Of a stretch of 64,000 nt of DNA, positions 2,750-63,994 are shown piece by piece. The translations under genes were made by a program, and so were the position numbers. A model generated the notes under the pieces. It worked only from the letters and a program-made list of their open reading frames with translations, was not told the origin of the DNA and made no database searches. The stretch is from assembly GCF_028368995.1 (NCBI RefSeq), contig NZ_JAQNDL010000002.1, positions 609,724 through 673,723 of the forward strand. The letters run 5' to 3'. The stretch comes from Nannocystis bainbridge (GTDB lineage Bacteria; Myxococcota_A; Polyangia; Nannocystales; Nannocystaceae). Position 1 is the stretch's first letter. Each line of letters starts with the position of its first letter.

Positions 2750-2830
2750 CGGTGCTCGAAGAGCATGTCCCAAAGGGCATGTTCGTTGCGACATGTGAAA
2801 ACGGCCATGTCCTTGGGGACATGGCCGAAG
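2750..2830. repeat. REP-like hairpin repeats (CATGTCC-N4-GGGCATG / CATGTCC-TTGG-GGACATG)
   Basis: gagcatgtcccaaagggcatgttcg...ggccatgtccttggggacatggcc: perfect 7-bp inverted arms around 4-nt loops. Confidence 0.6.
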
Positions 2831-2870
2831 AGGCTGGCACGATCGGCGCCGGGGGGAGCGGCGCCGGGGC

Positions 2871-3230
2871 TCAGCGGTTCTCGAGCTTGAAGCCGGTCAG
2901 GCAGCGCTCGCCGCCGTTGCCGGCCTTGTAGGTCGGGGTCACCTCGACCTGCTTGCGGGCGCGCATGGCCTCGAACAGCAGGTTGATCCCGCTGGCGCTG
3001 ACGTCGCGGCCAGGGCACAGCGAGCCGCCCCACTTGTAGTCGCGCTTCTGTCCGGTCTTCTCCTTGAGGGTGACCGAGCCGTTGAACATGGCGTGGTTGT
3101 CGCTGCTGCTCTCGTAGAGGGTGACGGCTTCGACGTTGCCGGCGACTCCGTTGGAGTCGGCGAAGGCGACGGCGGGGAGCAGGAGCGCCGACAGGGCGGC
3201 GATCAGGGACAGGCGGGGACGGTGCGACAT
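2871..3230 (-). CDS. Small secreted protein, hypothetical
   Basis: 119-aa ORF with N-terminal signal peptide (LIAALSALLLPAVAFA). GGAGAA RBS about 8 nt upstream of ATG at 3230. Non-repetitive composition. Confidence 0.5.
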   Translation of the reverse strand: MSHRPRLSLIAALSALLLPAVAFADSNGVAGNVEAVTLYESSSDNHAMFNGSVTLKEKTGQKRDYKWGGSLCPGRDVSASGINLLFEAMRARKQVEVTPTYKAGNGGERCLTGFKLENR

Positions 3231-3399
3231 GGTGATTCTCCTGGGGGGTGACCCGTGGGTGCGGGTCGGATTGCGGGGGCAAGAGTCCTATTTGCGTCCT
3301 CGACCTGCAACACCTCGTGCGCCGACGATCTGCGCGGGATCATGCGCCAGGGCGCGTGAGCGCCCGTTGCGGGCGAGCGGCGACAGGTCCGGCCTGGAG

Positions 3400-3720
3400 A
3401 CAGAGATGTCTCTCGGGACATGTCGATGAAACGCGTTCCAGGGACAGGTGACCGGGCTCCGAGAAGGACGTGTCTCTCGGGACATGTCGAAGCATCACGG
3501 GTCTGGGACAGGTGACCGGGCCGGAGAACCATGTGTCTCTCGGGACAGGTCGAAGGCGCGCGCTCCGGGGCCGGGCGGCGCCGAGAGCGGCATGTCCTCG
3601 GGGACATGTCGATGGAGCGCGGTCCGGGGACAGGTGGCCGTCCGGAGCGGCGGGATGGCTCCCGGGACATGTCAAACGCGACATGCCCCGAGGGACAGGT
3701 CTAGCCGCGCTGACGCAGGG
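3400..3720. repeat. Tandem array of REP-like GGGACATGTC / GGGACAGGTG hairpin repeats with 63-66 bp higher-order unit (3 copies)
   Basis: Repeated blocks gtctctcgggacatgtcga[a/t]g ... gggacaggtgaccgggc[c/t]..gagaa ... gtg seen three times, plus further single copies up to 3710. Confidence 0.75.
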
Positions 3721-4621
3721 CACCGCGCAGCTTGACGAGGGTGTCGTCGAGGCGCGAGGCGGGCACGCTGACGCGCGTCGGCATGCCGCCGCCGAGGCCG
3801 AGCAGAGTGACGAAATCGAGGCCGCTCTCGAAGCCGGCGGCGATGTTGAGGGTCTGGCCGTCGATGACCACGGCGATGGTGGCGCGCTGCTGGCCGAGCA
3901 GCAGCAGCTCGGTCTTGTCGAACGGGCGCGGGTTCGCGGGCACGCGCACGAGCGCGACGCCGTCCTCGACGACGTAGGCGCGGGCGAGCGCGGCGGCCTC
4001 GGCGGCCATGGCGTCGAAGTCGGCGGCGGCGGCGGCGATCGCCTCCTGCTCGGCGCCGCGCGGGCGACCGGCGACCAGCCAGCGCACGATCTTGATCAGG
4101 AGGACGGTGTCCTCGTAGTGGGCGCGCAGGGCCTTGTCGACGAGGGCGCCGATCGGGCCGACTTCGCCGGTGCGGGTGTCGACGGCGCGGGCGTCGGCGT
4201 CGGCGCCGGGGTAGGGCTCGACGCCGCCGAGCAGCCACTTGGCGGCGGAGTAGAGGCCGTCGAGGTCGAAGTGGGCGACGATGGTGTCGACCGGACCTGT
4301 CTCCTGGACCATCTGCGGCGTGATGATCTCGGGGCAGGCGCCGTGCTCGGCCTTGGTGTGGAGCACGAAGCGAGCGTCACCGCGGAACTGCGCGTGGCGC
4401 TCGTGATCGTGGTGATCGACCCACCGGGCCAGGCGCGGGCCGAGGCCGTGGAGGAACTTGCCGGTGATCTTCTCGAAGCCGCTGCCGATGCCCTCGGCCG
4501 CAAAGGCGACGTCGAGCACGACGACGCGGCCGCGCAGGCTGGCCGGCTTCGGCAGCCGCCGCGGGCTGGCGAACACCAGGTCGATCGCGGCGGCGTGGGC
4601 GAGGTCGGGCGTGGCCTTCAA
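3701..4621 (-). CDS. Hypothetical protein (contains VDHHDHERH motif; possible DHH-like phosphoesterase, uncertain)
   Basis: 306-aa ORF with balanced composition. 4-nt overlap with the downstream TPR gene suggests an operon. Confidence 0.4.
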   Translation of the reverse strand: MKATPDLAHAAAIDLVFASPRRLPKPASLRGRVVVLDVAFAAEGIGSGFEKITGKFLHGLGPRLARWVDHHDHERHAQFRGDARFVLHTKAEHGACPEIITPQMVQETGPVDTIVAHFDLDGLYSAAKWLLGGVEPYPGADADARAVDTRTGEVGPIGALVDKALRAHYEDTVLLIKIVRWLVAGRPRGAEQEAIAAAAADFDAMAAEAAALARAYVVEDGVALVRVPANPRPFDKTELLLLGQQRATIAVVIDGQTLNIAAGFESGLDFVTLLGLGGGMPTRVSVPASRLDDTLVKLRGALRQRG

Positions 4622-4929
4622 CCTTCCAGCCCGGCGCGAGCGGACTCGAGCTCGCCGAGCGCGTGCGAGTCGCCGGCCTGGCGGGCGATCTCGACGCCGG
4701 CGTCGAGGACCGCCCGCGCGCCCGCGGGATCGCCGGCCTCGAGGAACGTGTTGCCGGCCATCAGGTAGGTGGGCACGTATCCGGGGACGCGCGCGATGAG
4801 CTCCTGGAACTCGGCGATCGCCTCGGCGAGCTGCCCGCGACGCTTGAGCTCCATGGCCAGGCCGTAGCGCGGGAACGCCTCACCTGGCTTCTGGGCCACG
4901 AACTGTCGGAGCATCTCGAGGCGATCCAC
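4618..4929 (-). CDS. TPR-repeat protein
   Basis: 103 aa with tetratricopeptide-like helices (..AEAIAEFQELIARVPGYVPTYLMAGNTFLEAGDPAGA..). Confidence 0.5.
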   Translation of the reverse strand: MDRLEMLRQFVAQKPGEAFPRYGLAMELKRRGQLAEAIAEFQELIARVPGYVPTYLMAGNTFLEAGDPAGARAVLDAGVEIARQAGDSHALGELESARAGLEG

Positions 4930-4936
4930 GCGGACC

Positions 4937-5495: not shown

Positions 5496-5587
5496 GCGCT
5501 TCCCTCTGGAGGGCGGCACCCTAACCGCCCTGCCGGTTCCGCGCAACCCGGACGCGCCGCGAACGCCGTGCGGGCGCGGGCCGGCTG

Positions 5588-8494
<2,907 letters not shown>

Positions 8495-8625
8495 GCGGCG
8501 GGATGTCTTCGAGGGCATGTCCCGATGGACATGTCTTGGAGAGAATGTCCTCGGGGACATGTCGATGTGAGCATGTCATTCGGGACATGTTCTTGAGGGC
8601 GTGATACGCAGCACGGCCGTGGTTT
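8495..8625. repeat. REP-like CATGTCC/GGACATG repeat cluster
   Basis: gggatgtcttcgagggcatgtcccgatggacatgtcttggagagaatgtcctcggggacatgtcgatgtgagcatgtcattcgggacatgttc. Confidence 0.65.
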
Positions 8626-8646
8626 GCGTGGTGAGGGCCGCCGGGC

Positions 8647-9524: not shown

Positions 9525-9725
9525 TCGAGGCGTGGGGGCGATGGAGATGTCCGAGAGGACATGTCGAGATCGGCGAGCGCATCGGGTCATCGCGGTGGAT
9601 GATGGTGTCTTTGGGGACATGTCCATGGGGACATGTTTCGAGCGGGTGGGTCGGGGCGCGTCGCCGAGGATGTGTTTCGGACATGTCTCGAAGGACATGA
9701 CAAAAGCTCGCGGGTGACGGGGGAC
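9525..9725. repeat. REP-like CATGTCC/GGACATG repeat cluster
   Basis: gagatgtccgagaggacatgtcgag ... ggggacatgtccatggggacatgtttcgag ... gtttcggacatgtctcgaaggacatgac. Confidence 0.65.
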
Positions 9726-9978
9726 ACAGCGTGGTTTGCGTGCCCGCCTGCTGCGCTTCATGCCTACAGAGCGCAGGGGTGGCCGTGCGGAGCGTGTTCG
9801 AAGGTCGAGGGTCGGGGGTGCTCCCGAGCGTCGGCCCATCCCGGCTGCCGGGGCGACGGCGGCGGTAGATCCTGCGGCTGAAACAGACCTCCACTCGACC
9901 CGCCGGCCCGGCTTCCCCCCTCTGTCGCGGCCGGCGGGTTTTCTTTTGCCGGGGTCGTGGGGCATCCTCGCGGCGCGC

Positions 9979-10860: not shown

Positions 10861-10869
10861 AACGGCGGC

Positions 10870-14944: not shown

Positions 14945-14984
14945 AGAGATGGCCCGAAGGACAGGTCGAGGGCGCGGACGCGGC

Positions 14985-15115
14985 GGGGAGTCCGGAGCTC
15001 GCCGTAAGAGCGGGGCATGTCCTCGTGGGCATGTCCTCGCGGGCATGCCTTGAAGGACATGTCTTCATAGACATGCCGAAACGGGCATGTCCCCGGGGAC
15101 ATGCTCAGCGGCGCA
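14985..15115. repeat. REP-like repeat cluster (GCATGTCC-TCGY-GGGCATG iterated about 6x with a ~14-bp period)
   Basis: ggggcatgtcctcgtgggcatgtcctcgcgggcatgccttgaaggacatgtcttcatagacatgccgaaacgggcatgtccccggggacatgctc. Confidence 0.7.
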
Positions 15116-16559: not shown

Positions 16560-16730
16560 GCGATCGCCCGCGGGGCGTGCTGGTCGAAGGGACAGGTGGC
16601 GCGGGGCTCGAAGGCGCGGGTGATGCCGGGTTCGAGCCGCGTCGATGTCATCTGGCCGAAGAGACAGGTCCGCGGCGGGCGAGCGATGGATGTCCGAAGG
16701 GACAGGTCGTCGATAAGCCGCGGCCTCGCG
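16560..16730. repeat. REP-like repeat cluster, GGGACAGGTS variant
   Basis: gaagggacaggtggcg ... gaagagacaggtccgcg ... gaagggacaggtcgtcg. Confidence 0.6.
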
Positions 16731-17027
16731 CTGTGATCGCAATCGCAAGCGGCGCGGGCGTCGGCATTCACGGGTCTGCACCTCGGAGGTTCCGCACGGG
16801 CCTTCGCCTTGACCGCCCACCGGACCGCGTGTATCCCCAAATCGATGCTCCGGCGCGCCACCACCGCGACTACCACGACCACCCTTTCGGGTGGGGTCGG
16901 TCGCGTGCGCGTGCGCTGAGAGCCTTCTCGTCACGTCCTGCGAAGCCCCGCCCGAACCGGCGGGGCTTTGGCGCGCCTGGTGGCGTCGCTCCGTCCGGTC
17001 GGCCCTTTCGACCCGGAGAACGCCGTC

Positions 17028-18385: not shown

Positions 18386-19726
18386 TTGAAGGTGCGAGAC
18401 GGGCGGCGGTGCCTGGCCGCCAGGATGCCGACGTGGTACGGAAGAGCGGTGCAGATCCGCGACATCGAGCTCACGAACTTCCGCGGCTTCGAGACGCTCA
18501 AGTGTGAGCTCAACCCCGAGTGCACACTGTTCGTGGGGATCAACGGATCTGGCAAGACCAGTGTACTTGATGCGATCGCGGCGCTGCTATCGATGTGGAT
18601 GCGTGCTGTGGCCGGTCGATTGGATGGGGGGAGGCTCGAGCCCGACGACCGGCGGCTAGTCCGGCGGATCATCAAGGGGGTCCCGAGCCTTGAGGTTGCG
18701 GGGCCCGTGGTCGTCCATGGAACCATCTCTGGAAGAGAGGGTGAATCGCACCTTGAACGCGTGTCGTTGGACGGCACAGATTTTGTAAACAGTTCCCTCC
18801 TGTCGGAAGGGTATCGCACTGTCGAATCGGTCAGTGCAGGAGCGCAGGAAGAACTGCCGCTCTTCGCTTACTACTGCACCGGTAGACTGTGGCAAACGAG
18901 CGATGTGCAGGGAAACCTGAGGTTGCAAAGCGTGTTCGATGGCTACCGTGATTGTCTGCGCGCGGCTGTTAACCATCAGCTTCTTCAGAGCTGGATGTCG
19001 TGGCGGGAATCCGTCCGCCTGCAGGAGATCGGTCTCGCCGTGGAAAGCGGCCAGGAAATCAGGTCGGTACGAGAACCGCTGCTCGAGGTAGTTGCAAACG
19101 CAGTTACCGATTGTGTGGAAGGGGCAAAGCGGTTCTACTATTCCGTAAACCACGAGGAGCTTCGGGTCGACTTCAAGGACGGGCGAACGCTGCCCTTCCG
19201 CATGTTGTCGGACGGGTACCGCAACTTGCTGGCGCTCGTCGGCGACATCGCCTGGCGCGCCGCGCGGCTCAATCCTCATCACGGGGTAGATGCGGCCAAG
19301 GAGACCGCAGGCGTGGTGCTGATCGACGAGCTCGATCTTCACCTGCACCCGAGCTGGCAGCGGAGCGTGCTGCCGAACTTGCGGCGGGTCTTCCCGAAGA
19401 TCCAGTTCATCGCCACGACCCACTCGCCGCAAGTGCTGTCCACGGCCGAGCCGGCGTGGATCCGCGTGCTCCATCCGGACGGCAGCGTGGGCACCGTCGA
19501 GCATACGCACGGACGTGACTCCAACAGCCTGCTCGAGGACGTGTTTGGCGTCCCCGAGCGGCCCGTCGAGACGCGCGACGACATCCGGCGGCTGTTCGAC
19601 CTCATCGATCGCGGCGCGTTCGACGAGGCCGAAGCGTTGCGGGAGAAGTTGCAGGAGGACCTCGGTCCGGACGACCCTGACATCGTGCGGGCTCGAACCG
19701 CGATCGATCTCGAGAGGAATCTATGA
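18386..19726 (+). CDS. AAA/ABC-type ATPase, PtuA-like (Septu-type defence ATPase); true start possibly ATG 18425
   Basis: RecF/SMC-like Walker A (FVGINGSGKTSVLDAI), Walker B/D-loop (VVLIDELDLHLHP), H-loop (IATTHSP). GC content about 55-62%, well below flanks. Confidence 0.65.
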   Translation: MKVRDGRRCLAARMPTWYGRAVQIRDIELTNFRGFETLKCELNPECTLFVGINGSGKTSVLDAIAALLSMWMRAVAGRLDGGRLEPDDRRLVRRIIKGVPSLEVAGPVVVHGTISGREGESHLERVSLDGTDFVNSSLLSEGYRTVESVSAGAQEELPLFAYYCTGRLWQTSDVQGNLRLQSVFDGYRDCLRAAVNHQLLQSWMSWRESVRLQEIGLAVESGQEIRSVREPLLEVVANAVTDCVEGAKRFYYSVNHEELRVDFKDGRTLPFRMLSDGYRNLLALVGDIAWRAARLNPHHGVDAAKETAGVVLIDELDLHLHPSWQRSVLPNLRRVFPKIQFIATTHSPQVLSTAEPAWIRVLHPDGSVGTVEHTHGRDSNSLLEDVFGVPERPVETRDDIRRLFDLIDRGAFDEAEALREKLQEDLGPDDPDIVRARTAIDLERNL

Positions 19727-24666: not shown

Positions 24667-24780
24667 CGAAAATGTCTCATTGGACATGTTTGTTTGAACA
24701 TGTCCTTATGCGTCTGTCGTCGAATCGTCGAGGACATGTTCATAAGAACATGTCCGATTGAACATGCGTCAGGGCGGGCG
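24660..24780. repeat. REP-like repeat cluster (AT-richer variant)
   Basis: tcattggacatgtttgtttgaacatgtccttatg ... gaggacatgttcataagaacatgtccgattgaacatgcg. Confidence 0.6.
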
Positions 24781-26249: not shown

Positions 26250-26350
26250 AGAATGACCTCAAGGACATGTCCTGAAGGGAATGTCCGTGGTCGCTCGCTC
26301 GCTCGCTCGCGGTCATGAACGCTCGGGACATGTTCGAGAGGACATGTCCC
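26250..26350. repeat. REP-like repeat cluster
   Basis: aaggacatgtcctgaagggaatgtccgtgg ... gggacatgttcgagaggacatgtcccgtg. Confidence 0.6.
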
Positions 26351-28894: not shown

Positions 28895-28945
28895 GCACAG
28901 CCATCAATGGCTTTTTGGACATGTCGACGAGGACATGTCCCGGAG
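28895..28945. repeat. REP-like repeat pair
   Basis: tttttggacatgtcgacgaggacatgtcccggaggtc. Confidence 0.55.
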
Positions 28946-28946
28946 G

Positions 28947-29972
<1,026 letters not shown>

Positions 29973-45123: not shown

Positions 45124-45334
45124 GGGAGGGTGCGGAGCGGGGCGACAACGGCGAGGGCCGGCGGCGCATTCCGTCGCGCGACGGGATAGCACGCACGCCG
45201 GCGGCGCCCAGCCCCGAGGGCGGCCGCGGGGGCGCAGGCGGGCCGGCGAGGCGCGCGCCCGGAGCCGCGCGGATGGCGGCGGGCGGGCTCGGCCGGGCTG
45301 GCGTGGGGCGATCGCCGAGGGTGATGCATGGGCC

Positions 45335-45660
45335 ATGGCGGGAGGGACATGGGCTTTGGGACATGTCGGTCGGGCCAGAGGCGGGATGTCAGGGGGGACA
45401 TGTTGGACCTGGTGAAGCGGGCGCGTCATGCTCCGGCACGAGGCATGTGGCGCGAGAGACATGTCCCGATCCACATGCTCGATTCGACATGTCCTGATCG
45501 ACATTCCTGAATGGACATGTTGGGCCTGGTGGAGCGTGCGCGGCCATGCGCTGTTACGAGCCATGCAGCGCGAGAGATGTCCCGATTGACATGCTCTATT
45601 CGACATGTCTGGATCGACATGTCTCGATAGACATGTCTCCGCGGACATGTCCCGCGGCGC
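45335..45660. repeat. Large REP-like repeat array (about 20 CATG-core units)
   Basis: gggacatgggctttgggacatgtcggtcgggc ... gggggacatgttggacctgg ... gagacatgtcccgatccacatgctcgattcgacatgtcctgatcgacattcctgaatggacatgttggg ... gacatgctctattcgacatgtctggatcgacatgtctcgatagacatgtctccgcggacatgtcccgcgg. Confidence 0.75.
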
Positions 45661-50206: not shown

Positions 50207-53200
50207 ATGTCGACGCCGCCCGACACGCCGCCCGACACGAAGGCCGCCCGCGGTGCAGGTGCGGGCACGTGGGCCGACGTCGACGTCCATCGTCTCCATG
50301 CGCGCGTGATGGGCCGGCTGTTCGGCGAGCCGGCCGCGCCCACCATGATCGGCAGGTTCCATGTCGAGCGCCGGCTGGGGTCGGGGGCCATGGGCGTCGT
50401 CTATGCGGCCGTCGACGCCCAGCTCAATCGCCGGGTCGCCATCAAGCTGCTGCACCCGCACCTGCAGGGCGACGAGCAAGGCCGCGCTCGACTGCTGCGC
50501 GAGGCCCGGGCGATGGCCCGCCTCGAGCACGATCACGTGGTGCGGATCTACGAGGTCGGCGCGTGGGGCGACCAGATCTACATCGCCATGGAGCTGATCG
50601 AGGGGGTGACCCTCGACGCGTGGCTGCGCGAGCGCCCGCGGGCCTGGCAGGCGGTGCTGACGGTGTACCTGCAAGCGGGGCGGGCGCTGGCGGCGGCCCA
50701 CCACGCGGGGCTGCTGCACCGCGACTTCAAGCCCGAGAACGTGCTCGTCGACCACCGCGACCGCGCCCGCGTCCTCGACTTCGGGCTGACGTGCGCGCTC
50801 GATGCCGGCGAGGCGCTCGACGACGAGCTGATGCCGCTGACCCGCACCGGCAGCATCCTCGGCACGCCGGCGTACATGGCCCCCGAGCAGCAGCGCACCG
50901 GCAACGCGGAGCCGCGCTCCGACCAATTCAGCTTCTGCGTGGCGCTGTTCGAAGGTTTGTTCGGTCTGCGGCCGTTCGGCTCGGTTCCGCGCTTCGGTCA
51001 GGTCGAGATCGCGCCCATTCCGCGGGAAAGTCGCGTCCCTTTGCGCATCCGCCGCGCGATCTTTCGCGGCCTGTCCGAAAAGCCAGATGCGCGCTGGCCG
51101 GGCATGGACGACCTGCTGGCGGCCTTGCAGGCGCCGCGCCGGTTCGTCGGCGGGCCCGAGGACGGGCGGGCGCGGCCGTGGCTGCTGGCGGGCGGAGTGA
51201 CGCTCGCGGCCGCGGGGCTGGTGGCGCTCGGCGTGTCGCTGGCGCAGCCGGAGACGGGCGATGCGGTGGCGGAGGGGCCAGAGCCGGGGCCGCTCGCGAG
51301 CGCGCCCGACGAGGCGCAGGCCGACGCGCTGGCGACCGAGCGCGCGGCCGCCGAACGCCAGGCCCACGCGCTGCGGGTCCGCGACGCCGCGCTGTCGCTG
51401 CTGCCCCGCGATCCGACGACGGCGGCGCTGCTGCTGCGCGAGCTCGACGATCCCGGAGCGCTGGCCCAGCGGGTGCTGGCGGAGCCGATCAGCGCGGCGA
51501 TCCTGCGCGGCCACGACGGGCCGGTGGTGGCGGTGCGCTGGATCGAGGCTGTCCCGGGGGACAGGGGCGCGGTGCCGGGGGCGGCGAGCGAGGCTGTCCC
51601 GAGGGACAGGTCGCATGGCGCGCCGGCAGGGTCCGCGAGCGCGGCGGTGCTGGCGAGCGGTTCTGTCCGTGCGGGCAGCGGCGGGGCTGTCCTCCGGGAC
51701 AGGTCGGGCGGCGAGGCGGCGCTCCTTGGGAGCGGGTCGATGCCGCACGACATGGCTGTCCTCGGGGACAGGTCACGAGTGAGCGGTACGGCTGGCCTTT
51801 CGGACAGTTCACGCGCGCGTGAGCCGATCGAAAAGACTGTCCTTCGGGACATGTCGCGAGCGAGCGGAGCGGCGGTGCTGGCGAGCGGCGTCGGCTCACC
51901 TGTCCCGGGGGACAGTTTGGCGTCGCCTGTCCCGCAGGACAGCTCGAGAACACCGCCGGCGGAGCTGCGCGGCGCGGTCGAGACCGTCGACGCCTCCGGG
52001 CACGTGCGTCGGTTCGCGATCGCCGGCGGGCCGCCGACCCCCGGCGCGGGCAGCTTCGGCGCCGACCCGCGCCGCGGCCCTGCGGGCGAGGAGCTGCGGG
52101 TCGACGCTCGCGGCGGCGTGTCGCTGGTCGCCGGCGAGCGCGTGACGGCCCTGCGCGGCGTCGTCGGCCCGCTCGCGGCGGTCGCCTGGAGCCCCGACGG
52201 CCAGGAAATCGCCGCGGCCGGCCCGCGCGGCGAAGTGTGGCGGATCGCCGGGGGGCGCCCGATCGCCGTCGGCGAGCGCGGCGCGGCCGTCGGCGCGCTG
52301 GCGTGGGACCGCGGCGGGCGGCACCTCGCGATCGGCCGCGACGACGGCGGGGTCGAGGTGTGGCGTATCGACGGCGCGGCGCGGCGGATAGCGGCGGTGG
52401 TCGGCGACGGCGGCGTCACCGGCCTGGCTCTCGGGACAGGTTGGTTCGCCAGCGGCAGCGACGACGGCAGCGCGCGGGTGTGGCGGATCGGCGGGGTCGG
52501 GCGGCCCTTCGTGCTGCGTGGTCACACCGGGCCGGTTCGGGCGCTGGCGTTCGCGCCCGGCGGTGTCCGCCTGATCACCGGCAGCGACGACGGCAGCGCG
52601 CGGGTGTGGCGGCTCAGCCCGGCGGCGGTGCGCGAGCACGACCTCGGCGCGGTCGTGCACGCGCTCGCCTGGAGCCCCGACGGCACCGCGCTGGCGGCCG
52701 CCGGGGCGCGCAGCGTGTGGCTGCTGCCGACCGACGGCGGGCCGGTGCGCCGGCGCGACCACGCCGGCACCGCGCTGGCGCTGGCCTGGCGCGGCGACGG
52801 TCAGGAGCTGGCGGTCGCCGACGACGGCGGCGCGATCACGTGGATCCCCCGCGGCGAGGGCGAGCCGCGGCGGGCCAGCGTCGACCGCCGCCCGCTACCC
52901 GCGCTGGCCTGGGATCCTCGGTCCTCGCGCCTGGCCGCCGGCGGCAGCGACGGCGCGTTCTTCATCTGGCCTTCAGGACATGACTTCAAGGACATGGCCG
53001 ATCCGACCCGCGCGCCGCAGGGCCGCGGGGCCATCGCCGCGCTGGCCTGGTCGCCGGTCGACGATCGACTGGCGGCCGTCACCGCGTCCGGCTACGTGCT
53101 CGTGCGCACCGAGCAGACCGTGTTCATCGAGCTCGGCCAGCCGCTGCGCGGGCTGGCGTGGAGCCCCGCCGGCGACGCCCTGGCGATCGTCGGCGACAAT

Positions 53201-53623
53201 CGGGCGCTGGTGCGCATCGCCGCGGCCACTGGCGTGCGTACCGAGCTGGGGCGGGCCGCGGCGGCGCTGACGAGCGTCGCCTGGGACCCGCGCGATCGCT
53301 GGATCGTCGCCGGCGCGGCCGACGGCGGGCTGCTCCACTGGTCGCTGCAGAGCGAGGGCGGGCCCGAGCTGCTCGTGGGCCACGGCGGCGGCATTCATGC
53401 CCTGGCGTTCGACACCGCCGGTGACCGCTTCGCCTCGGCGGGCGGCGACGGCCGCGTCGTCGTCTGGCCGCGCCCGGGCGAGGGCCTGCGCGCGCGCATC
53501 GCCGACGCCACGCGCGCCTGCCTGCAGCCTGCGGATCGCCGGCGTCATCTCGGTGAATCGCAGGACATCGCCGACGCAGGAGCCGCGGCTTGCGAGCGAT
53601 CATTTGGTAATGTGGATTACTAA
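50207..53623 (+). CDS. Serine/threonine protein kinase with disordered repeat linker and C-terminal WD40 beta-propeller
   Basis: Hanks kinase subdomains (GSGAMGVVY, AIK, HRDFKPEN, DFG, APE), then a linker encoded by REP-like repeats (51545-51950), then WD40 repeats (GHDGPVVAVRW, GHTGPVRALAF ... GSDDGSARVWR). Confidence 0.8.
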   Translation: MSTPPDTPPDTKAARGAGAGTWADVDVHRLHARVMGRLFGEPAAPTMIGRFHVERRLGSGAMGVVYAAVDAQLNRRVAIKLLHPHLQGDEQGRARLLREARAMARLEHDHVVRIYEVGAWGDQIYIAMELIEGVTLDAWLRERPRAWQAVLTVYLQAGRALAAAHHAGLLHRDFKPENVLVDHRDRARVLDFGLTCALDAGEALDDELMPLTRTGSILGTPAYMAPEQQRTGNAEPRSDQFSFCVALFEGLFGLRPFGSVPRFGQVEIAPIPRESRVPLRIRRAIFRGLSEKPDARWPGMDDLLAALQAPRRFVGGPEDGRARPWLLAGGVTLAAAGLVALGVSLAQPETGDAVAEGPEPGPLASAPDEAQADALATERAAAERQAHALRVRDAALSLLPRDPTTAALLLRELDDPGALAQRVLAEPISAAILRGHDGPVVAVRWIEAVPGDRGAVPGAASEAVPRDRSHGAPAGSASAAVLASGSVRAGSGGAVLRDRSGGEAALLGSGSMPHDMAVLGDRSRVSGTAGLSDSSRAREPIEKTVLRDMSRASGAAVLASGVGSPVPGDSLASPVPQDSSRTPPAELRGAVETVDASGHVRRFAIAGGPPTPGAGSFGADPRRGPAGEELRVDARGGVSLVAGERVTALRGVVGPLAAVAWSPDGQEIAAAGPRGEVWRIAGGRPIAVGERGAAVGALAWDRGGRHLAIGRDDGGVEVWRIDGAARRIAAVVGDGGVTGLALGTGWFASGSDDGSARVWRIGGVGRPFVLRGHTGPVRALAFAPGGVRLITGSDDGSARVWRLSPAAVREHDLGAVVHALAWSPDGTALAAAGARSVWLLPTDGGPVRRRDHAGTALALAWRGDGQELAVADDGGAITWIPRGEGEPRRASVDRRPLPALAWDPRSSRLAAGGSDGAFFIWPSGHDFKDMADPTRAPQGRGAIAALAWSPVDDRLAAVTASGYVLVRTEQTVFIELGQPLRGLAWSPAGDALAIVGDNRALVRIAAATGVRTELGRAAAALTSVAWDPRDRWIVAGAADGGLLHWSLQSEGGPELLVGHGGGIHALAFDTAGDRFASAGGDGRVVVWPRPGEGLRARIADATRACLQPADRRRHLGESQDIADAGAAACERSFGNVDY

Positions 53624-53944
53624 ATGATCGAATGAGGCTCACCGCGAGCCGCAATGCGCATAGGCGATCGCATGGCGGCCCGCGGCCCCCAGGTCCGGCC
53701 TCGACCGGGGCAGCCGCGCGCGGTCGGCGGCAAACCGCTGGTCATACATCTGTTACGACGCTTTCGAGAATTTTTTGTCGGTGACGGTGATCGATCGGGC
53801 GGGCCTCGTTACTCGAGGGACAGGTCGGGTCTCGCGGTCGTCGCGGTGATCCCGCCCATGCGCCACGGATGGTGCTCTGCCACGGAGGCTGTCTCTCAGG
53901 CCAGGATGGCCACATCTATTCCTCGCGGTCCGTCAGGCCGTCGC

Positions 53945-53964
53945 CAGCCTTGCATGTGCATGCA
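53945..53964. promoter_or_regulatory. 20-bp palindrome CCTTGCATG-TG-CATGCAAGG about 70 bp upstream of gene 54035 (operator candidate)
   Basis: Perfect 9-bp inverted arms with CATG cores in a 410-bp intergenic region that also carries an AT-rich patch (gaattttttgtcg). Confidence 0.35.
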
Positions 53965-54034
53965 AGGCCGGCCTGTTGGACAGCATCGTCGCCGCGCGTC
54001 GCGCTTCGCGGCCGCGGCCCTCTAAGGAGAGCAC

Positions 54035-55027
54035 ATGTCGACAGTACGATCGCAGGGGCGCCGTTCGCTCCTGAAGGTGGGGATCGCATTGTCCCTGGTG
54101 GTTCCGGCGCCCGCGTGGGCCGCCCAGCCTGGGGAATCCTCGAGCGGATGGAAGACTGAATCGGCCGCGTCGGCGGACGGCGACACCGTCGTCCTCGACG
54201 ACTCGCCCGAGCCGGCCAAGCGCAGCAAGAGCAGCGGCAAGAAGAAGGCCCCCAAGGCCCAGCCGCGCGAGGCGATGATCAAGGCTCAGGTCGAAAAGGC
54301 CGAAGCCGAGCGCGCGCCGCTGCAAGATCAGGCGCAGCAGCTGTCCGACGCCGGCAACCTCGAGGGGGCCGTCGGCCTGCTCGCGGGCGGCGCCGAGGCG
54401 CTGCGCGATCCGGTGCTGCACCTCGCGGCCGCCGACGCCCGGCAGAAGCTCGCGCGCAAGCGCAGCGCCGATCAGGCCAAGGCCGAGTGGGAGGCCAGCC
54501 TGCGCCACATCGACCGCGCCGACGCGCTGCTCGCCGCCAACAGCGGCGGGGCCGTCGACGGCCTGCGCGTCAACCCGGACGACCTCGAGACCATGCACGC
54601 GTGGAGCGTCGAGCTGCGCGGCGCCGCCGATGGCGCGCTGCCGGACCTCGTGCGGCGCACCAACCCGGTCCGTCGCAACGCCCGCGGCGAGCTGATCGCC
54701 GGCTCGATCTTCCTCGCCGGCGGCCTCGCGGCGCTCGGCGTCATGGGCGGCGGCATCTACCTCAGCAAGTCGGCCGACCGCGAGCTGCCCAAGGCCGATG
54801 GCAACCCCGAGTACCTCGCCCCGCTCGAGGCGCAGAAGAAGCAGGGCGACACCATGATCGCCGCGGGCGCGGTCGCGGGCGTCCTCGGCGTCGCGCTCGG
54901 CGTCACTCTGGTGGCGCTCGGCGCCACCGACTTCAAGAAGGCGCGCCAGGAGCAATTGGCGCGCCTCCGCGTCGCGCCCGCCGTCTCGCCGACGTTCGGC
55001 GGCCTGTTCCTGTCCGCTCGCTTCTGA
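54035..55027 (+). CDS. Secreted/membrane-anchored hypothetical protein
   Basis: Signal peptide (SLLKVGIALSLVVPAPAWAAQP), Lys-rich segment, C-terminal TM helices. Confidence 0.45.
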   Translation: MSTVRSQGRRSLLKVGIALSLVVPAPAWAAQPGESSSGWKTESAASADGDTVVLDDSPEPAKRSKSSGKKKAPKAQPREAMIKAQVEKAEAERAPLQDQAQQLSDAGNLEGAVGLLAGGAEALRDPVLHLAAADARQKLARKRSADQAKAEWEASLRHIDRADALLAANSGGAVDGLRVNPDDLETMHAWSVELRGAADGALPDLVRRTNPVRRNARGELIAGSIFLAGGLAALGVMGGGIYLSKSADRELPKADGNPEYLAPLEAQKKQGDTMIAAGAVAGVLGVALGVTLVALGATDFKKARQEQLARLRVAPAVSPTFGGLFLSARF

Positions 55028-56963: not shown

Positions 56964-57177
56964 TCCTCACCCACCAGACCGCCCGGGCAGATCTGGCGAC
57001 CTGCCCGGGCGGTCGTCTGTCTTGCGTTCGACCTGTCTGAAAAGACATCTTGCGCGCGGCCGCGGCGGCGCGGTCCCCGGGCCGCGCGTGGCCCGGCGCA
57101 CGGCGGAGTGGGGCATGCGCGCCCGTGCGCGATAGCGTCCTCGATCGAGGGCCATAGGTCGTGTACCGTGGTCGGCG

Positions 57178-60048: not shown

Positions 60049-60108
60049 CGTCCGGCGCGCCACCATCGCCGCTGGCGCCTGGCCACGCGGGCGCGCTACG
60101 TTCCGCGC

Positions 60109-60852: not shown

Positions 60853-60894
60853 CCGGCCCGCGCCGCGCCGCTCCGCGCGGTCACCGACCGCGGC

Positions 60895-61010
60895 GATCTA
60901 TCGATCGTCGTCTTGGAGACATGTACCGAAGGTCATGCCCCAAAGGTCATGCCTGTATGGACATGCTCGATCGAGCATGCCTCGTCGACCATGTCGTCTC
61001 AGCCGAGCTC
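60895..61010. repeat. REP-like repeat cluster (CATG/CCATG variant)
   Basis: ggagacatgtaccgaaggtcatgccccaaaggtcatgcctgtatggacatgctcgatcgagcatgcctcgtcgaccatgtcgtc. Confidence 0.55.
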
Positions 61011-62864
61011 GCCCCAGCGGACGATCGTGCCGTCCTCCGAGCTGCTCCACAGCGCCCCGTCGGCCCACGTCAGCGCCCGCACCGCGTCGGTGTGAAAGCG
61101 CAGCGTCGCCACCGTCGCCCCGTCGGCGACCCGGTGCTGCACGATCGGCCCGGCGGGGTGGCCGACGAACAGCCAGCGCCCCGCGTCGTCGAAGCAGAGG
61201 CAGCGGTGGAATTCCGGCTCGCCGTCCAGCTCGGCCGCCAGTTCGACGGTCGTCCCCGCGGCCACGTCGACGAGCCGCGGGCGATCGACGCCGATCACGC
61301 CCACGTGCGCGCCGTCGCGGCTGATCGCCACGCTCAAGGCGTTCGTCGGCAGCGTCAGCGACTGCAGCGGCTTGCCCTTGGCAAGACCCACCACCACCAG
61401 CGCGGCGCCGACGGCCACCGCCGCCGCGGAGTCGCACAGGGCGATGCGAGGGAAGCGGCCGGGCAACTTGAGGTTCTTGGCCCATTTCGTCGCTCCGAAC
61501 GCGCGCCACTGGGCCTGTGCCGTCGGCTCCGTCATCCGCGACGCCGGGTAGTTGGACGAAGTCACGCCCCAGGTCCGGCCGTCGGGCGCCAGCGCCAGCT
61601 CGCCGGCGCGGCGCTGGACCTCGAGCAACTCGCCCGGTTGGCCGGCGGCGTCGAACTGGGTCACCTTCAGCGGCTGGAGCGGGTAGGACTCGTGGAACAC
61701 CAGCAGGCGCTGCCCGTCGGCGGTCGTGGCGATGTCGTGGACCTCGCGCACGTCCAGCAGCTTCCGCGCGCCGCTGCCGAGCTCGAGCTTCACCACCGAC
61801 GGCCTCGAGTTGGCCGGCTGACACGACTGCAGCGTCAACCTCTCGCCGTGGACGAACAGTCGCTGCGCGCCGGGGCTGTAGCCGGTGATCGTAGCGAGCG
61901 GCTGCTCCGGCCGATCGACGCGCCAGATCCTCACCGTCGCGGTCGCGTGATCGATGGCCGCGACGTGGCCCGCGCTTGCGGCCGCAGCCTGGCCGGCCCA
62001 GCCCGACATCTGCCCGGTGGCGCTCTCCAGCTCGACGCTGAAGACCACCCGCTGCTCGGCGACGTCCCACACCTGCACCGCGCCCTGGATGGCGTGGAGG
62101 GCGATCCGGCTGCGGTCGTACGCGATCGACCCGCCGTCGGCTCGGCGGGGCAGGTCGCCCTGCCGCACGATCGCGCCGTCGACGAACGCGACCCGCTCGC
62201 CGCTCTTACCCACCATCCCGCGGGCGTCGGCGAAGAACGGCTTGAAGGCGCCGAAGAACGGCGCGTCGTCGAGCGCCTCGAGCCGCCCGTCGGGATGGAC
62301 CGCCACCATCGCGTCGCCCCGCAGGTACACCACCCCGTCGGGACGCACCGCCAGCCACAGCGCCTCCGCGACCTCCGGCGGCAGCGCCACCTCGCGGAGG
62401 GGCGCCCCCGTCGCCGCGTCGACGAAGCACAGCGCCGGAGACGGGCCCTCGCGCCGCCACACCAGCTGCGCGCCGTCGGGTGAGACGGCGCCGCAGAAGT
62501 GCTCGCCGAATGGTTCGCTCGCCAGCAGCTCGACCACGCGTCCGGTCGCCGGCCACACCCGCGCGACGACGCGACCGCTCGCGCCGTGGGCCCACGCCAG
62601 CACCGATTCGCCGTCAGGGTGCGCGACCATCCACGCCACGCCGACCACAGCGACGCTCGCCCGCGGCGGTGACGGTGCCGACGGATCGTGCAGCGTGATC
62701 CCGTGGCTGCCGCCGACCACCAGCGACCCGTCGGCGAGGAACGCCAGCGCGTGCGGCTTGCCGGCGAAGATCCGCAGCGAAGGCGCGCGCGGGGCAGGGG
62801 GCAGGTGGACGATCGGGGCCGAGGGGAGCGGATTCCAGGTCATGACGGGCAGCGCAACCTCCAT
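60999..62864 (-). CDS. Beta-propeller (WD40/PQQ-like) repeat protein, hypothetical
   Basis: 621-aa coherent ORF with repeated ..DG..L..GS.DG.I.VW.. strands. Ends ..EDGTIVRWGELG. Confidence 0.5.
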   Translation of the reverse strand: MEVALPVMTWNPLPSAPIVHLPPAPRAPSLRIFAGKPHALAFLADGSLVVGGSHGITLHDPSAPSPPRASVAVVGVAWMVAHPDGESVLAWAHGASGRVVARVWPATGRVVELLASEPFGEHFCGAVSPDGAQLVWRREGPSPALCFVDAATGAPLREVALPPEVAEALWLAVRPDGVVYLRGDAMVAVHPDGRLEALDDAPFFGAFKPFFADARGMVGKSGERVAFVDGAIVRQGDLPRRADGGSIAYDRSRIALHAIQGAVQVWDVAEQRVVFSVELESATGQMSGWAGQAAAASAGHVAAIDHATATVRIWRVDRPEQPLATITGYSPGAQRLFVHGERLTLQSCQPANSRPSVVKLELGSGARKLLDVREVHDIATTADGQRLLVFHESYPLQPLKVTQFDAAGQPGELLEVQRRAGELALAPDGRTWGVTSSNYPASRMTEPTAQAQWRAFGATKWAKNLKLPGRFPRIALCDSAAAVAVGAALVVVGLAKGKPLQSLTLPTNALSVAISRDGAHVGVIGVDRPRLVDVAAGTTVELAAELDGEPEFHRCLCFDDAGRWLFVGHPAGPIVQHRVADGATVATLRFHTDAVRALTWADGALWSSSEDGTIVRWGELG

Positions 62865-62924
62865 AGCAGCGCGCGGGTCGCGTCCGCAAGCGCCCCCGAC
62901 GCGTGCCCCCTGATAGGAACGAAA

Positions 62925-62990
62925 GACAGGACGCGAGGGACATTCTCACGAGATGTCCCTTCAGACATGTCCCCAAGAACACCCGCTCAG
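62925..62990. repeat. REP-like repeat cluster
   Basis: gagggacattctcacgagatgtcccttcagacatgtccccaag. Confidence 0.55.
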
Positions 62991-63994
62991 TACAGCCGCA
63001 GCACCACCACGCACGCGTCCCACACCACGTGGCAGACCAGCACCGCGAACAGGCTGCGGGTCTTGAGCCCGAGCCAGGCCCAGAAGAACCCCGCGCCCGC
63101 GGCCGCCACCACCAACGCTGGCACCCCGAGGCTCACGTGGGCCACCGCGAACGCGGCCGCCGACGCCGCCGCGCCCCACCACGGGCCCGCGCGCGACGCC
63201 ACCGCGAACGCCACCGCCCCGCGCCACACCACCTCCTCCGCCGCCGCGATCAGCGGCAGCAGCACCGCCGCCGCGCCGGCCGGAAGCAGGTAGACCCAGC
63301 CGTACACCGCGGCCACCTGGACCCGCGCCTCCGGCGTCACCGCGAACAGCACCTGGCTCCCGATCCACCCGGCCACCAGCAGCGCCGCCGCGGCGACGAT
63401 CCCCCGGGCCAGCCCGCGCAGGCTCGGCCGCCACAGCTCCCGCCACGGCAGCCGCACCAGCGCCAGGCACAGCGGCACCAGCACCACGTTGGCCGCCAGC
63501 ATCCGCCACCACACGTGCGGCGTCAGCGACCCGAGCGCCCAGATCAGCCCCACCGCCAGCGGCACCAGCCAGGCCAGGTGGACAGCGCCTTTGGAACATG
63601 TCTTGAAGAACATGTCCTCATCGCCACGTCGCAGCCGCAGCGACAGCCCCAGCCACGGTTCGACCCCCGCCGCCAGCTCCACGATCCGGGCCTCCGTCAG
63701 CGGCTGCGTCACCACCCCCAGCTCGGCCGCCGCCGGCCCCGGATCGCCGACCAGGCCGTGCGTCAGCAGCCCGAGCTGCGAGCGCGTCAGCAGCGGAGCC
63801 GGCAGCTTCTCGAGCCCCGCCACCGCGACTGCCAGCAGCGGCGCAGGGCAGGGGATGAGCGTCACCGGCAGCCCCAGCGCGTCGGCCACTCGCTGCACCA
63901 CCGCGCGCAGCGTCAGCACCTCCGGCCCTACAACGTCGTAGCAGCGCCCGATCGCCGCCGGCCGCTCCAGCGCCGCCGCGACCGCCCGCGCCAC
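62987..63994 (-). CDS. Continuous ORF: NAD(P)-binding NDUFA9/NmrA-like C-terminal region (continuing beyond the window end) joined without a stop to a CPBP-family (CAAX) intramembrane protease domain; a REP-like repeat lies at the junction
   Basis: CPBP motifs EEVVWRG (EExxxR), FAVAHV, HVVWDA in the last 200 aa. Upstream part YDVVGPEVLTLRAVVQRVADALGLPVTLIP..PLLTRSQLGLLT resembles the C-terminus of NDUFA9-like epimerases. Junction ..RRGDEDMFFKTCSKG.. is encoded by the repeat at 63580-63620. Confidence 0.45.
   Translation of the reverse strand: MARAVAAALERPAAIGRCYDVVGPEVLTLRAVVQRVADALGLPVTLIPCPAPLLAVAVAGLEKLPAPLLTRSQLGLLTHGLVGDPGPAAAELGVVTQPLTEARIVELAAGVEPWLGLSLRLRRGDEDMFFKTCSKGAVHLAWLVPLAVGLIWALGSLTPHVWWRMLAANVVLVPLCLALVRLPWRELWRPSLRGLARGIVAAAALLVAGWIGSQVLFAVTPEARVQVAAVYGWVYLLPAGAAAVLLPLIAAAEEVVWRGAVAFAVASRAGPWWGAAASAAAFAVAHVSLGVPALVVAAAGAGFFWAWLGLKTRSLFAVLVCHVVWDACVVVLRLY

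What the first reader, a model, noticed from the sequence alone, without database searches (positions are those of the whole stretch)
2750..63620. Window-wide family of REP-like hairpin repeats (CATGTCC-N4-GGACATG) filling nearly every intergenic region
At least 17 intergenic regions carry 2 to 20 tandem copies of a short inverted repeat. These are 2750-2830, 3400-3720, 8495-8625, 9525-9725, 14985-15115, 16560-16730, 24660-24780, 26250-26350, 28895-28945, 34855-34940, 38125-38445, 45335-45660, 52970-53000, 57030-57050, 60895-61010, 62925-62990 and 63580-63620. The arms are 5-8 bp of GC-rich sequence ([C]ATGTCC ... GGACAT[G], with GGACAGGTC as a frequent variant). They surround a 4-nt loop that is often a stable tetraloop type (TTCG, TCGG, TTGG). 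Successive units repeat every 10-14 bp. This is the dominant non-coding signal of the window. It behaves like the REP/BIME elements of enterobacteria, but the sequence is different and the iteration is unusually dense. No such family is described, to my knowledge, for high-GC Myxococcota-like genomes. Possible roles are 3'-end mRNA stabilisers, attenuators or terminators, phased binding sites for a nucleoid-associated or regulatory protein (the spacing is close to one helical turn), a clustered CATG methylation motif, or a target or relic of a REP-associated transposase (RAYT)-like mobilisation mechanism.
Basis: seen in the sequence. Interest (0 to 1): 0.85.

Follow-up and report, generated by a model that had tools for sequence, protein, structure and literature searches.

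The report
Nannocystis gene-end palindrome repeat arrays
A 10-base palindrome (GGACATGTCC), repeated head to tail exactly every 14 bases, sits just after the ends of many genes in this Nannocystis genome and its relatives; it resembles the REP/BIME repeats of enterobacteria but has a different, apparently undescribed architecture, and its function is not known.

Summary
The palindrome GACATGTC occurs 25 times against 0.76 expected, and CATG cores sit exactly 14, 28, 42 or 56 bp apart. Units are about 56-fold denser in intergenic than in coding DNA.

About 13 of the 17 listed regions hold clear arrays. Two lie inside genes and two are weak or decayed. The repeat step is strictly 14 bp, not 10-14, which is 1.33 helical turns rather than one. 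The 4-nt loop shows no stable-tetraloop preference.

The window comes from a Nannocystis species. The motif is spread across at least ten Nannocystis or Nannocystaceae assemblies and is essentially absent elsewhere.

Arrays start a median 13.5 nt after stop codons. They occupy 27 of 56 convergent, 22 of 119 tandem and 1 of 54 divergent intergenic regions. That excludes a promoter or operator role.

They fold very stably but have no U-tract. They show no transcript-sense wobble bias, and no copies longer than 23 bp are shared between sites. No transposase lies in the window.

My best reading is a lineage-specific, REP/BIME-like hairpin array in the 3' UTR. It probably acts as a two-way transcript-end barrier, with rapid gain and loss of units. 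A phased DNA-binding protein or a selfish mini-element remain live rivals. No published description was found.

The parts
2761..2826 (.). Array of 5 phased CATG-centred units in a convergent intergenic region. It includes the perfect 9-bp-stem hairpin gcCATGTCCttggGGACATGgc, which on the minus strand is followed by GUUUU.
3381..3702 (.). Compound array with a 64-bp higher-order repeat. Each copy has one GGACATGTC hairpin and one GGACAGGTG unit. It abuts the stop codon of minus-strand gene 3701-4621.
8503..8592 (.). Array with 5 in-phase CATG cores across 6 unit positions, starting 9 nt after the stop of the VWA gene (5588-8494). It folds as one long hairpin (-59.2 kcal/mol, z = -8.5).
9543..9702 (.). 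Three unit pairs downstream of the glycine-rich-domain gene (stop at 9504). The last pair, GGACATGTCtcgaaGGACATG, is identical in the relative L001, including its loop.
14959..15106 (.). Seven-unit phased array that fills a convergent intergenic region from one stop codon to the other. It is colinear with a seven-unit array in L001.
16590..16709 (+). Weak GGACAGGTC-variant units (cgaagGGACAGGTc) in a divergent intergenic region. L001 has similar repeats there. This is not a phased CATG array.
24673..24766 (.). Array in a convergent intergenic region. It contains two copies, 50 bp apart, of GGACATG-N10-CATGTCC, with CATG still at 14-bp steps. L001 has an array at the same place that cannot be aligned to it.
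26254..26349 (.). Two unit pairs downstream of the minus-strand histidine kinase gene (stop at 26393). The next gene's start lies 100 bp beyond.
28917..28949 (.). Two units, GGACATGTCgacgaGGACATGTCC, 6 nt from the stop of minus-strand gene 28947-29972.
34876..34935 (.). Three to four units downstream of the radical SAM gene (stop at 34736).
38141..38450 (.). Sparse units downstream of gene 35658-38081: one hairpin, TGTCCtgagGGACATG, and two degenerate groups.
45334..45657 (.). The largest array. It has three phased blocks, the longest with 6 in-phase CATG cores across 7 unit positions (four of them exact GACATGTC at 45602, 45616, 45630, 45644), plus a 116-bp higher-order duplication. It ends 15 nt from the stop of minus-strand gene 45668-46642.
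51545..51945 (+). Nine TGTCC-N4-GGACAGGTC-type hairpins inside the linker of the kinase-WD40 gene. All are in one reading frame and read as AV[P/L]xDRS. The array is expanded compared with the N. radixulma orthologue.
57030..57050 (.). One decayed unit. The matching site in N. radixulma has the intact hairpin TGTCCtttcGGACATGTC.
60907..60997 (.). Six phased CATG cores with degenerate flanks (GGTCATGCC and similar). They fill a convergent intergenic region to within 2 nt of the stop at 60999.
62937..62981 (.). Two to three units 14 nt from the stop of the minus-strand Rce1-like gene (62987 onward).
52976..52996 (.). GGACATG-N7-GGACATG inside WD40 coding sequence, conserved in the N. radixulma orthologue. 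A coding look-alike, not an intergenic array.
63590..63617 (.). Two CATG-centred units 14 bp apart inside the Rce1-like gene. They lie in coding DNA, not intergenic DNA.

Best explanation
**What it is (high confidence)**
This is a repeat family found throughout the genus Nannocystis. Its unit is the palindrome GGACATGTCC followed by a free 4-nt spacer. Units are chained at an exact 14-bp step. Equivalently, the chain is a run of back-to-back hairpins, TGTCC-N4-GGACA, whose junctions create CATG. The arrays sit at the 3' ends of transcription units.

**How it most likely works (inferred)**
- Many arrays begin within about 15 nt of a stop codon, so at least their first units must be transcribed into the 3' UTR.
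- There the RNA folds into a stack of short hairpins, or one long imperfect hairpin.
- That structure would act as a 3'-end barrier: it would block 3'-to-5' exonucleases and/or pause RNA polymerase.
- Because each unit is its own reverse complement, one array could serve both genes of a convergent pair.
- In this respect the arrays work like REP/BIME elements. They would substitute for the unique GC-rich, U-tract-less hairpins found after other genes in this 73% GC genome.

**How arrays change (inferred)**
Arrays gain and lose whole 14-bp units quickly through a DNA-level process. Candidates are hairpin-mediated slippage, template switching, or an unidentified enzyme. The CATG core and the register are held constant throughout.
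For: **Shown**
- Enrichment is strong and the register is exact at 14 bp.
- Placement: arrays occupy 27 of 56 convergent, 22 of 119 tandem and 1 of 54 divergent intergenic regions in 73 Nannocystis loci. The median distance from stop codon to first unit is 13.5 nt. The median from last unit to the next start codon is 174 nt. In the window, all 4 convergent regions carry arrays.
- Arrays fold much better than shuffled controls, with z from -5.5 to -8.5 in seven of eight folds. The degenerate 60905-61000 array gives only z = -1.7.
- Arrays are capped by half-units on the inner side only, and these complete the terminal hairpins.
- The first 90 nt after a stop codon reach the same predicted stability with arrays (63% GC, -39.7 kcal/mol) as without (72% GC, -39.8). 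Both are more stable than divergent 5' regions or coding controls (-36.8).
- Classical hairpin-plus-T-run terminators are not enriched: 2 found against 4.0 expected in the first 20 kb.
- Arrays sit in the same orthologous intergenic regions in a relative whose DNA is about 90% identical, but with different unit content. In one colinear seven-unit array, CATG is 93% identical, flanks 62% and loops 33%.
- The motif is frequent in loci that were not chosen for it, at 0.24-0.61 units per kb against 0.02-0.03 expected.

**Inferred**
- That the arrays are transcribed.
- That they act as a barrier or terminator.
- How units turn over.
Against: - No U-tract follows the arrays. The signal simply fades into degenerate in-phase CAT(G).
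- Single-sided stem changes show no transcript-sense G.U preference: 61 G.U against 64 A.C. The bias follows the G-rich replication strand instead, 247 against 149.
- There is no pair-specific covariation beyond what shared variants give.
- A rigid 4-nt loop, an exact 14-bp register and a CATG core more conserved than the loop-closing G-C pairs are not what hairpin energetics alone predict. They point to sequence-specific recognition or templated generation.
- No RNA data are available.
Confidence: 0.45

Rival explanations
1. The arrays are phased binding sites on double-stranded DNA. A lineage-specific dimeric protein binds the CATG-centred palindromes cooperatively at 14-bp steps, three units per four helical turns. 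It coats gene 3' ends and acts as a transcription roadblock or insulator, or as a site that manages DNA supercoiling, as gyrase does at BIME-2.
For: - The register is exact at 14 bp with no tolerance of one base either way, and the spacer is invariably 4 nt.
- CATG is the best-conserved part within arrays (90-94% against 71-85% for the flanks) and between orthologous arrays (93% against 33% for loops).
- Spacers have a dyad-symmetric Y-Y-R-R bias.
- Outer halves of terminal units are as conserved as internal ones.
- There is no RNA-sense wobble bias.
- Arrays are most frequent in convergent regions, where positive supercoils build up. That link to supercoiling is an inference.
Against: - No candidate protein has been identified.
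- Half-unit caps on the inner side only fit pairing across the 4-nt spacer better than symmetric decay of binding sites.
- Unit number changes quickly between close relatives, which is unusual for conserved binding arrays.
- 14 bp puts neighbouring sites on different faces of the helix.
Confidence: 0.25
2. The units are selfish or semi-selfish mini-elements. They are spread by a DNA-level enzyme such as a RAYT-like or other HUH transposase, or by a process that targets CATG so that each event adds 10 bp plus a 4-bp CATG duplication, giving 14 bp. Their position at gene ends would then only mark where insertions are tolerated.
For: - Unit content at conserved positions turns over quickly. Aligned orthologous units look like independent draws from the family profile: flanks 62% and loops 33% identical, against 86% at third codon positions next door.
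- The family is restricted to one lineage.
- Units are absent around the recently acquired Septu-like island.
- Every unit carries a new CATG, which would explain growth in tandem at a fixed step (inference).
- Strand asymmetries follow the replication strand.
Against: - No transposase or Y1 (Y1_Tnp) domain protein is found among the roughly 43 window proteins scanned against Pfam.
- No dispersed copy longer than 23 bp exists, so nothing resembles a REPIN or MITE master copy.
- Neighbouring units do not share loops: 32% identity against 27% at random. That argues against recent copying.
- There is no GTAG-type head.
- CATG stays in phase between species, which suggests constraint rather than neutral relics.
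- A 10-bp element is smaller than any known transposase substrate (from my own knowledge).
Confidence: 0.2
3. The arrays are clusters of CATG methylation sites, read by a methyltransferase or a methylation-sensitive binding protein.
For: CATG is the most conserved element and is strictly phased.
Against: - The conserved motif extends well beyond CATG to GGACATGTCC.
- Outside the arrays CATG is near its compositional expectation: 244 in total, of which roughly 90 are in arrays, against about 160 expected. This is my own estimate.
- No methylation data or CATG methyltransferase is at hand.
Confidence: 0.04
4. The arrays are promoter-proximal operator, enhancer or attenuator sites that control the downstream gene.
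For: They are palindromic and occur in arrays, as some operators do (for example tandem met boxes; from my own knowledge).
Against: - Only 1 of 54 divergent intergenic regions carries an array, against 27 of 56 convergent ones.
- Arrays hug the upstream stop codon (median 13.5 nt) and lie far from the next start (median 174 nt).
Confidence: 0.02

Closest known systems
REP / BIME elements of enterobacteria and pseudomonads (including BIME-2 tandem arrays and REPIN-RAYT systems)
   Same: - Lies outside genes and is palindromic.
- Placed at 3' ends of transcription units and between convergent genes, and excluded from promoter regions.
- Occurs singly or in tandem clusters.
- Restricted to one lineage, with an estimated thousands of copies per genome.
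- Copy number varies between close relatives at the same position.
   Different: - The unit is a perfect 10-bp palindrome (a 14-18-nt hairpin), not a 20-40-nt imperfect palindrome with an asymmetric head such as GTAG.
- The register is exact at 14 bp with a fixed 4-nt spacer.
- Orientation cannot be defined, so there is no Y/Z-type alternation.
- No similarity extends beyond the unit.
- No RAYT has been identified.
HIP1, the highly iterated palindrome GCGATCGC of cyanobacteria
   Same: A lineage-specific 8-bp palindrome that is enormously over-represented.
   Different: HIP1 is scattered through coding and non-coding DNA and is not arrayed. This motif is about 56-fold enriched outside genes, phased, and tied to gene ends.
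Inverted pairs of DNA uptake sequences (Neisseria DUS, Haemophilus USS) that form terminator-like hairpins
   Same: A short motif of about 10 nt with thousands of copies, often forming hairpins just after genes.
   Different: DUS and USS are not palindromic, are common inside genes, and act in DNA uptake. They do not form 14-bp arrays.
U-tract-less (I-shaped) terminators and the TRIT repeat motif of mycobacteria
   Same: Hairpins without U-tracts at 3' ends in a high-GC genome, including a repeated motif concentrated between convergent genes.
   Different: TRIT is a single, longer hairpin motif with far fewer copies. It is not a chain of 14-bp units with a fixed CATG core.
Tandem met-box operators bound by MetJ (a functional analogy only)
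   Same: An 8-bp palindrome repeated head to tail at a fixed register, read by cooperatively binding dimers.
   Different: Met boxes lie in a handful of promoters with an 8-bp step. These arrays are at gene ends, genome-wide, with a 14-bp step.

Membership tests
REP/BIME (REP-RAYT) | Lies outside genes, at 3' ends or between convergent genes, and avoids promoters | tested here: met
   Arrays occupy 27 of 56 convergent, 22 of 119 tandem and 1 of 54 divergent regions, and start a median 13.5 nt after the stop codon. In the window all 4 convergent regions carry them.
REP/BIME (REP-RAYT) | Imperfect palindromic unit of about 20-40 nt with a conserved asymmetric head (GTAG or similar) | tested here: not met
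   The unit is the perfect palindrome GGACATGTCC plus a free 4-nt spacer. No conserved flanking head appears in the position matrices.
REP/BIME (REP-RAYT) | A cognate RAYT (Y1 HUH transposase) gene flanked by the repeats | not testable with these tools
   No transposase or Y1 (Y1_Tnp) domain was found among the roughly 43 window proteins scanned.
REP/BIME (REP-RAYT) | Doublets (REPINs) or clusters whose copies are similar over tens of bases | tested here: not met
   The longest dispersed match within the window is 23 bp. Longer repeats are only local duplications of 64 and 116 bp.
Intrinsic (Rho-independent) terminator | A stable hairpin shortly after the stop codon | tested here: met
   z-scores from -5.5 to -8.5 in seven of eight arrays folded.
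Intrinsic (Rho-independent) terminator | A U-tract immediately 3' of the hairpin | tested here: not met
   There is no T enrichment after the last unit in the RNA sense. A single exception is the 2806 hairpin read on the minus strand.
HIP1-like highly iterated palindrome | A short palindrome over-represented genome-wide, in coding as well as non-coding DNA | tested here: not met
   It is over-represented, but 34 of 39 near-perfect units lie in the 11% of the window that is non-coding.
MITE | An element of 50-500 bp with terminal inverted repeats, a target-site duplication, and dispersed near-identical copies | tested here: not met
   No dispersed copies longer than 23 bp.
CRISPR array | Direct repeats of 23-47 bp separated by unique spacers of similar length | tested here: not met
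   The repeat is 10 bp and the spacers 4 bp.
Promoter operator or enhancer array | Lies upstream of regulated promoters | tested here: not met
   Only 1 of 54 divergent regions carries an array, and arrays are far from the next start codon.
Known Rfam RNA families | Reaches the gathering score of any of 4227 covariance models | tested here: not met
   No matches in the window.

The most novel reading that the evidence does not exclude
The strictly phased CATG palindromes are read at the DNA level by a Nannocystis-specific factor. One possibility is a protein that polymerises on gene 3' ends as a genome-wide roadblock terminator or insulator, in a genome that lacks U-tract terminators. The other is an enzyme that adds 14-bp units at CATG, which would be the smallest self-propagating DNA element known. 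Either would be a mechanism without a described bacterial counterpart.
Probability: 0.15. Interest if true: 0.85.

Novelty: new variant of a known kind. Interest (0 to 1): 0.55.

Why it matters
How transcription units end in very GC-rich bacteria is poorly understood, because classical U-tract terminators are scarce there. Myxobacteria with large genomes, such as Nannocystis, are of interest for natural-product work.

If these arrays are the 3'-end signals for about a third to a half of transcription units, they offer several uses:
- a simple sequence handle for predicting operon ends
- a part for designing expression constructs
- an entry point to studying mRNA decay and termination in this group

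The exact 14-bp register and the CATG core also make a clean bait for finding a partner protein. The genus restriction gives a usable taxonomic marker. If the arrays turn out to be only tolerated selfish DNA, they would still extend the REP concept to a much smaller unit and a new phylum.

Tried and rejected
- **Rfam:** the gathering-score scan of the window found nothing.
- **Stable tetraloops:** loops are Y-Y-R-R. UUCG-like loops are only slightly above what the per-position frequencies predict, and loops oriented by the gene strand show no tetraloop preference. The strand bias follows GC skew.
- **U-tract after arrays:** absent.
- **Compensatory changes:** compared across the spacer and within a palindrome. 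The rate is the same as in a non-adjacent control, so the test is uninformative.
- **Transcript-sense G.U bias:** absent.
- **Array growth by recent tandem duplication:** neighbouring loops are barely more alike than random pairs.
- **Dispersed longer elements (MITE or REPIN):** none.
- **Source genome:** three exact look-ups of window proteins found nothing. The source was placed instead by RsgA, 91% identical to N. radixulma.
- **Viral contigs:** only 5 hits, and none is Nannocystis-like.
- **dif site near the GC-skew turn:** nothing within 11 mismatches of the E. coli site.
- **GGACAGGT strand bias:** 73 against 21 on the G-rich strand. About 2.2-fold of the 3.5-fold bias is what base skew alone predicts, so I did not pursue it as a polar signal.
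- **Literature:** seven searches found no description.

Full report

The window is 73% G+C. The 8-base palindrome GACATGTC occurs 25 times, against 0.76 in dinucleotide-preserving shuffles. Three related patterns are also far above chance:
- TGTCC-N4-GGACA with up to one mismatch: 54 against 1.6.
- GGACATGTCC with up to one mismatch: 39 against 1.5.

I built a gene map from GC3 frame analysis and Pfam. On that map, 34 of the 39 near-perfect units lie in the 6.9 kb of non-coding DNA and 5 in the 57 kb of coding DNA. That is about a 56-fold difference in density.

The spacing is quantised. Distances between CATG cores are 14 (43 times), 28 (25), 42 (16) and 56 (11), against about one each at 13 and 15. 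Tandem Repeats Finder independently reports period-14 and period-28 arrays.

About thirteen of the seventeen listed regions hold clear arrays. The others are as follows:
- 52970-53000 lies inside the WD40 part of a kinase gene.
- 63580-63620 lies inside an Rce1-like gene.
- 16560-16730 is a weak GGACAGGTC variant.
- 57030-57050 is a decayed single unit. Its N. radixulma counterpart is an intact hairpin.

"Nearly every intergenic region" is too strong. About 14 of 31 regions of 40 bp or more carry units.

**2. Anatomy**

The unit is GGACATGTCC plus four free bases. Read another way, the array is a chain of hairpins, TGTCC-N4-GGACA, joined without a gap, and each junction creates CATG.
- The spacer is always 4 nt. 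All 147 perfect matches have a 4-nt spacer, and none has 3, 5 or 6.
- Spacers lean towards Y-Y-R-R.
- Within units CATG is the best-kept part, at 90-94%. The flanking triplets are at 71-85%.
- Arrays end with a half-unit on the inner side only, which completes the last hairpin. Even so, the outer halves of terminal full units are as conserved as internal ones.
- Every unit is self-complementary and the spacers are quasi-symmetric, so whole arrays fold into long hairpins. An example is 8500-8600, at -59.2 kcal/mol and z = -8.5. Seven of the eight arrays folded give z between -5.5 and -8.5; the degenerate 60905-61000 array gives -1.7.
- Nothing longer than 23 bp is shared between different arrays. 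The 64-bp repeat (3407-3640) and the 116-bp repeat (45396-45620) are local duplications.

**3. Where it occurs**

RsgA from the window is 91% identical to that of Nannocystis radixulma. A truncated ThrRS-like gene led to a syntenic metagenome contig, L001, with about 85-90% DNA identity.

Of these, 73 come from Nannocystis or Nannocystaceae: RBIL2 20, radixulma 12, pusilla 10, punicea 8, exedens 8, and five MAGs. They are spread along the chromosomes. In the complete N. punicea genome, for example, hits run from 2.3 to 11.2 Mb. The other loci are scattered hits, mostly one or two per genome and at most three, from unrelated taxa.

Loci that were not chosen for the motif (window, L001, L002, L116) carry 0.24-0.61 units per kb, against 0.02-0.03 expected. 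Extrapolated, that is a few thousand units per 11-13 Mb genome; this figure is an inference. Viral contigs gave only five hits.

**4. Position relative to genes**

In the 73 Nannocystis loci, arrays of two or more near-perfect units occupy the following:

| Type of intergenic region | With array | Total |
|---|---|---|
| Convergent | 27 | 56 |
| Tandem | 22 | 119 |
| Divergent | 1 | 54 |

In tandem regions the first unit starts a median 13.5 nt after the upstream stop codon (interquartile range 8-32). The last unit ends a median 174 nt before the next start codon. In the window all four convergent gaps are filled from stop to stop. About 16-17 of 44 genes have an array within 100 nt of their stop codon.

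This rules out promoter, operator and enhancer roles. It also means that at least the first units must be transcribed.

**5. Tests of mechanism**

- *Terminator features.* No U-tract follows the arrays. The signal fades into degenerate in-phase CAT(G). Classical hairpin-plus-T-run sites are not enriched, at 2 against 4.0 expected in the first 20 kb.
- *Structure at 3' ends.* The 90 nt after a stop codon are equally stable with arrays (63% GC, -39.7 kcal/mol) and without (72% GC, -39.8). Both are more stable than divergent 5' regions or coding DNA (-36.8). Gene ends without arrays often carry unique GC-rich hairpins. Arrays therefore look like one of two ways of giving a transcript a structured end.
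- *RNA-level selection.* I found no positive evidence for it. Single-sided stem changes give 61 G.U against 64 A.C in the transcript sense. On the G-rich strand the counts are 247 against 149, so the asymmetry follows replication skew. Double changes are compensatory no more often than in a non-adjacent control.
- *Evolution.* Arrays sit in the same orthologous intergenic regions in L001 and N. radixulma, but differ in unit number and sequence. One seven-unit array is colinear between the window and L001. In it CATG is 26/28 identical, flanks 26/42 and loops 8/24, while third codon positions of the adjacent gene are 86% identical. Neighbouring units in an array barely share loops. So the register and the CATG core are held, and everything else turns over fast.
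- *Mobility.* No transposase or Y1-type protein is in the window. The recently acquired Septu-like island has no units beside it.

**6. Interpretation**

With high confidence, this is a lineage-specific palindromic repeat family at gene 3' ends that behaves like REP/BIME.

I rank the possible mechanisms as follows:
1. Transcribed hairpin arrays acting as two-way 3'-end barriers, about 0.45. This fits the placement, the folding, the inner half-unit caps and the equivalence to other 3' hairpins.
2. Phased DNA-binding arrays, about 0.25. This best explains the exact register, the fixed spacer and the CATG conservation.
3. A tolerated self-propagating mini-element, about 0.2. This best explains the turnover and the lineage restriction, but no enzyme and no master copies were found.
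4. CATG methylation clusters, and promoter-type roles. Both are minor or excluded.

The first three are not mutually exclusive.

**7. Comparison with known systems**

The family fails two defining REP features, and a third could not be tested:
- It has no imperfect 20-40-nt unit with an asymmetric head.
- Its copies are not similar over tens of bases.
- A cognate RAYT could not be searched for genome-wide.

So I do not file it as REP. I describe it as working like REP/BIME. It is also not any of the following:
- HIP1-like, because it is not found throughout coding DNA.
- A MITE.
- A CRISPR array.
- A classical intrinsic terminator.
- A member of any Rfam family.

Seven literature searches found no description. 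That library is incomplete, so absence is not proof.

**8. An extra finding**

Nine TGTCC-N4-GGACAGGTC hairpins lie at 51545-51945, inside the linker of the kinase-WD40 gene. All are in one reading frame, with spacings of 45, 69, 24, 69, 36, 45, 63 and 27 nt. They are translated as AV[P/L]xDRS. The N. radixulma orthologue has about four. The same variant forms the 64-bp compound repeat at 3381-3702. Repeat units of this family can therefore expand inside a disordered coding linker.

**Verdict**

The feature is real and apparently undescribed: a new variant of a known kind. Interest is 0.55.

Noticed in passing
window 18386-20349: A PtuA/PtuB (Septu-like) defence gene pair sits in a 65.7% GC island that is missing from the syntenic relative L001. 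The intergenic regions on either side carry no repeat units.
   Followed up: partly
window ~53000-55000: Cumulative GC skew peaks here: the plus strand is G-rich to the left and C-rich to the right. This may be the replication terminus. No site within 11 mismatches of E. coli dif was found.
   Followed up: partly
window 51545-51945: Nine hairpin units of the GGACAGGTC variant lie in one reading frame inside the linker of kinase-WD40 gene 50207-53623, and read as AV[P/L]xDRS. The N. radixulma orthologue has only about four.
   Followed up: yes
window 30753-33248: This gene encodes a protein with major-vault-protein shoulder, Vault_3 and Band_7 domains, which is an unusual bacterial homologue.
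   Followed up: no
window 16733-17027 (L001 8584-8866): A non-coding stretch upstream of the truncated ThrRS-like gene is about 89% identical in L001, far better conserved than the other intergenic DNA. It has no Rfam match and may be a leader or regulatory RNA.
   Followed up: no
window 9921-9948 and 9700-9880: A classical GC hairpin plus TTTTCTTTTG is conserved in L001 (about 2640-2668). The stretch before it looks like the 5' remnant of a second glycine-rich-domain paralogue that L001 still has.
   Followed up: partly
window 52473-52558: ARAGORN calls an 86-nt tRNA-Glu here. It lies inside WD40 coding sequence and is probably a false positive.
   Followed up: partly
window 53947-53968 (L116 ~4184-4205): The palindrome gccttgCATGtgCATGcaaggc lies upstream of gene 54077-55027 and is conserved in N. 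radixulma. It may be a regulator binding site.
   Followed up: no
L111 (IMG/VR contig, 44% GC) and L093 (Bryobacter MAG): Unrelated low-GC sequences also carry many GGACATGTCC-like sites: 12 in 14.7 kb and 6 in 8 kb. This may be an independent use of the same palindrome.
   Followed up: partly
L047, L084, L087, L061, L079, L080: Several Roseobacter contigs (Sulfitobacter sp. DFL-14, Roseovarius) match GACATGTC-N6-GACATGTC more than once but lack the GGACATGTCC form. They may hold a separate repeat family.
   Followed up: no
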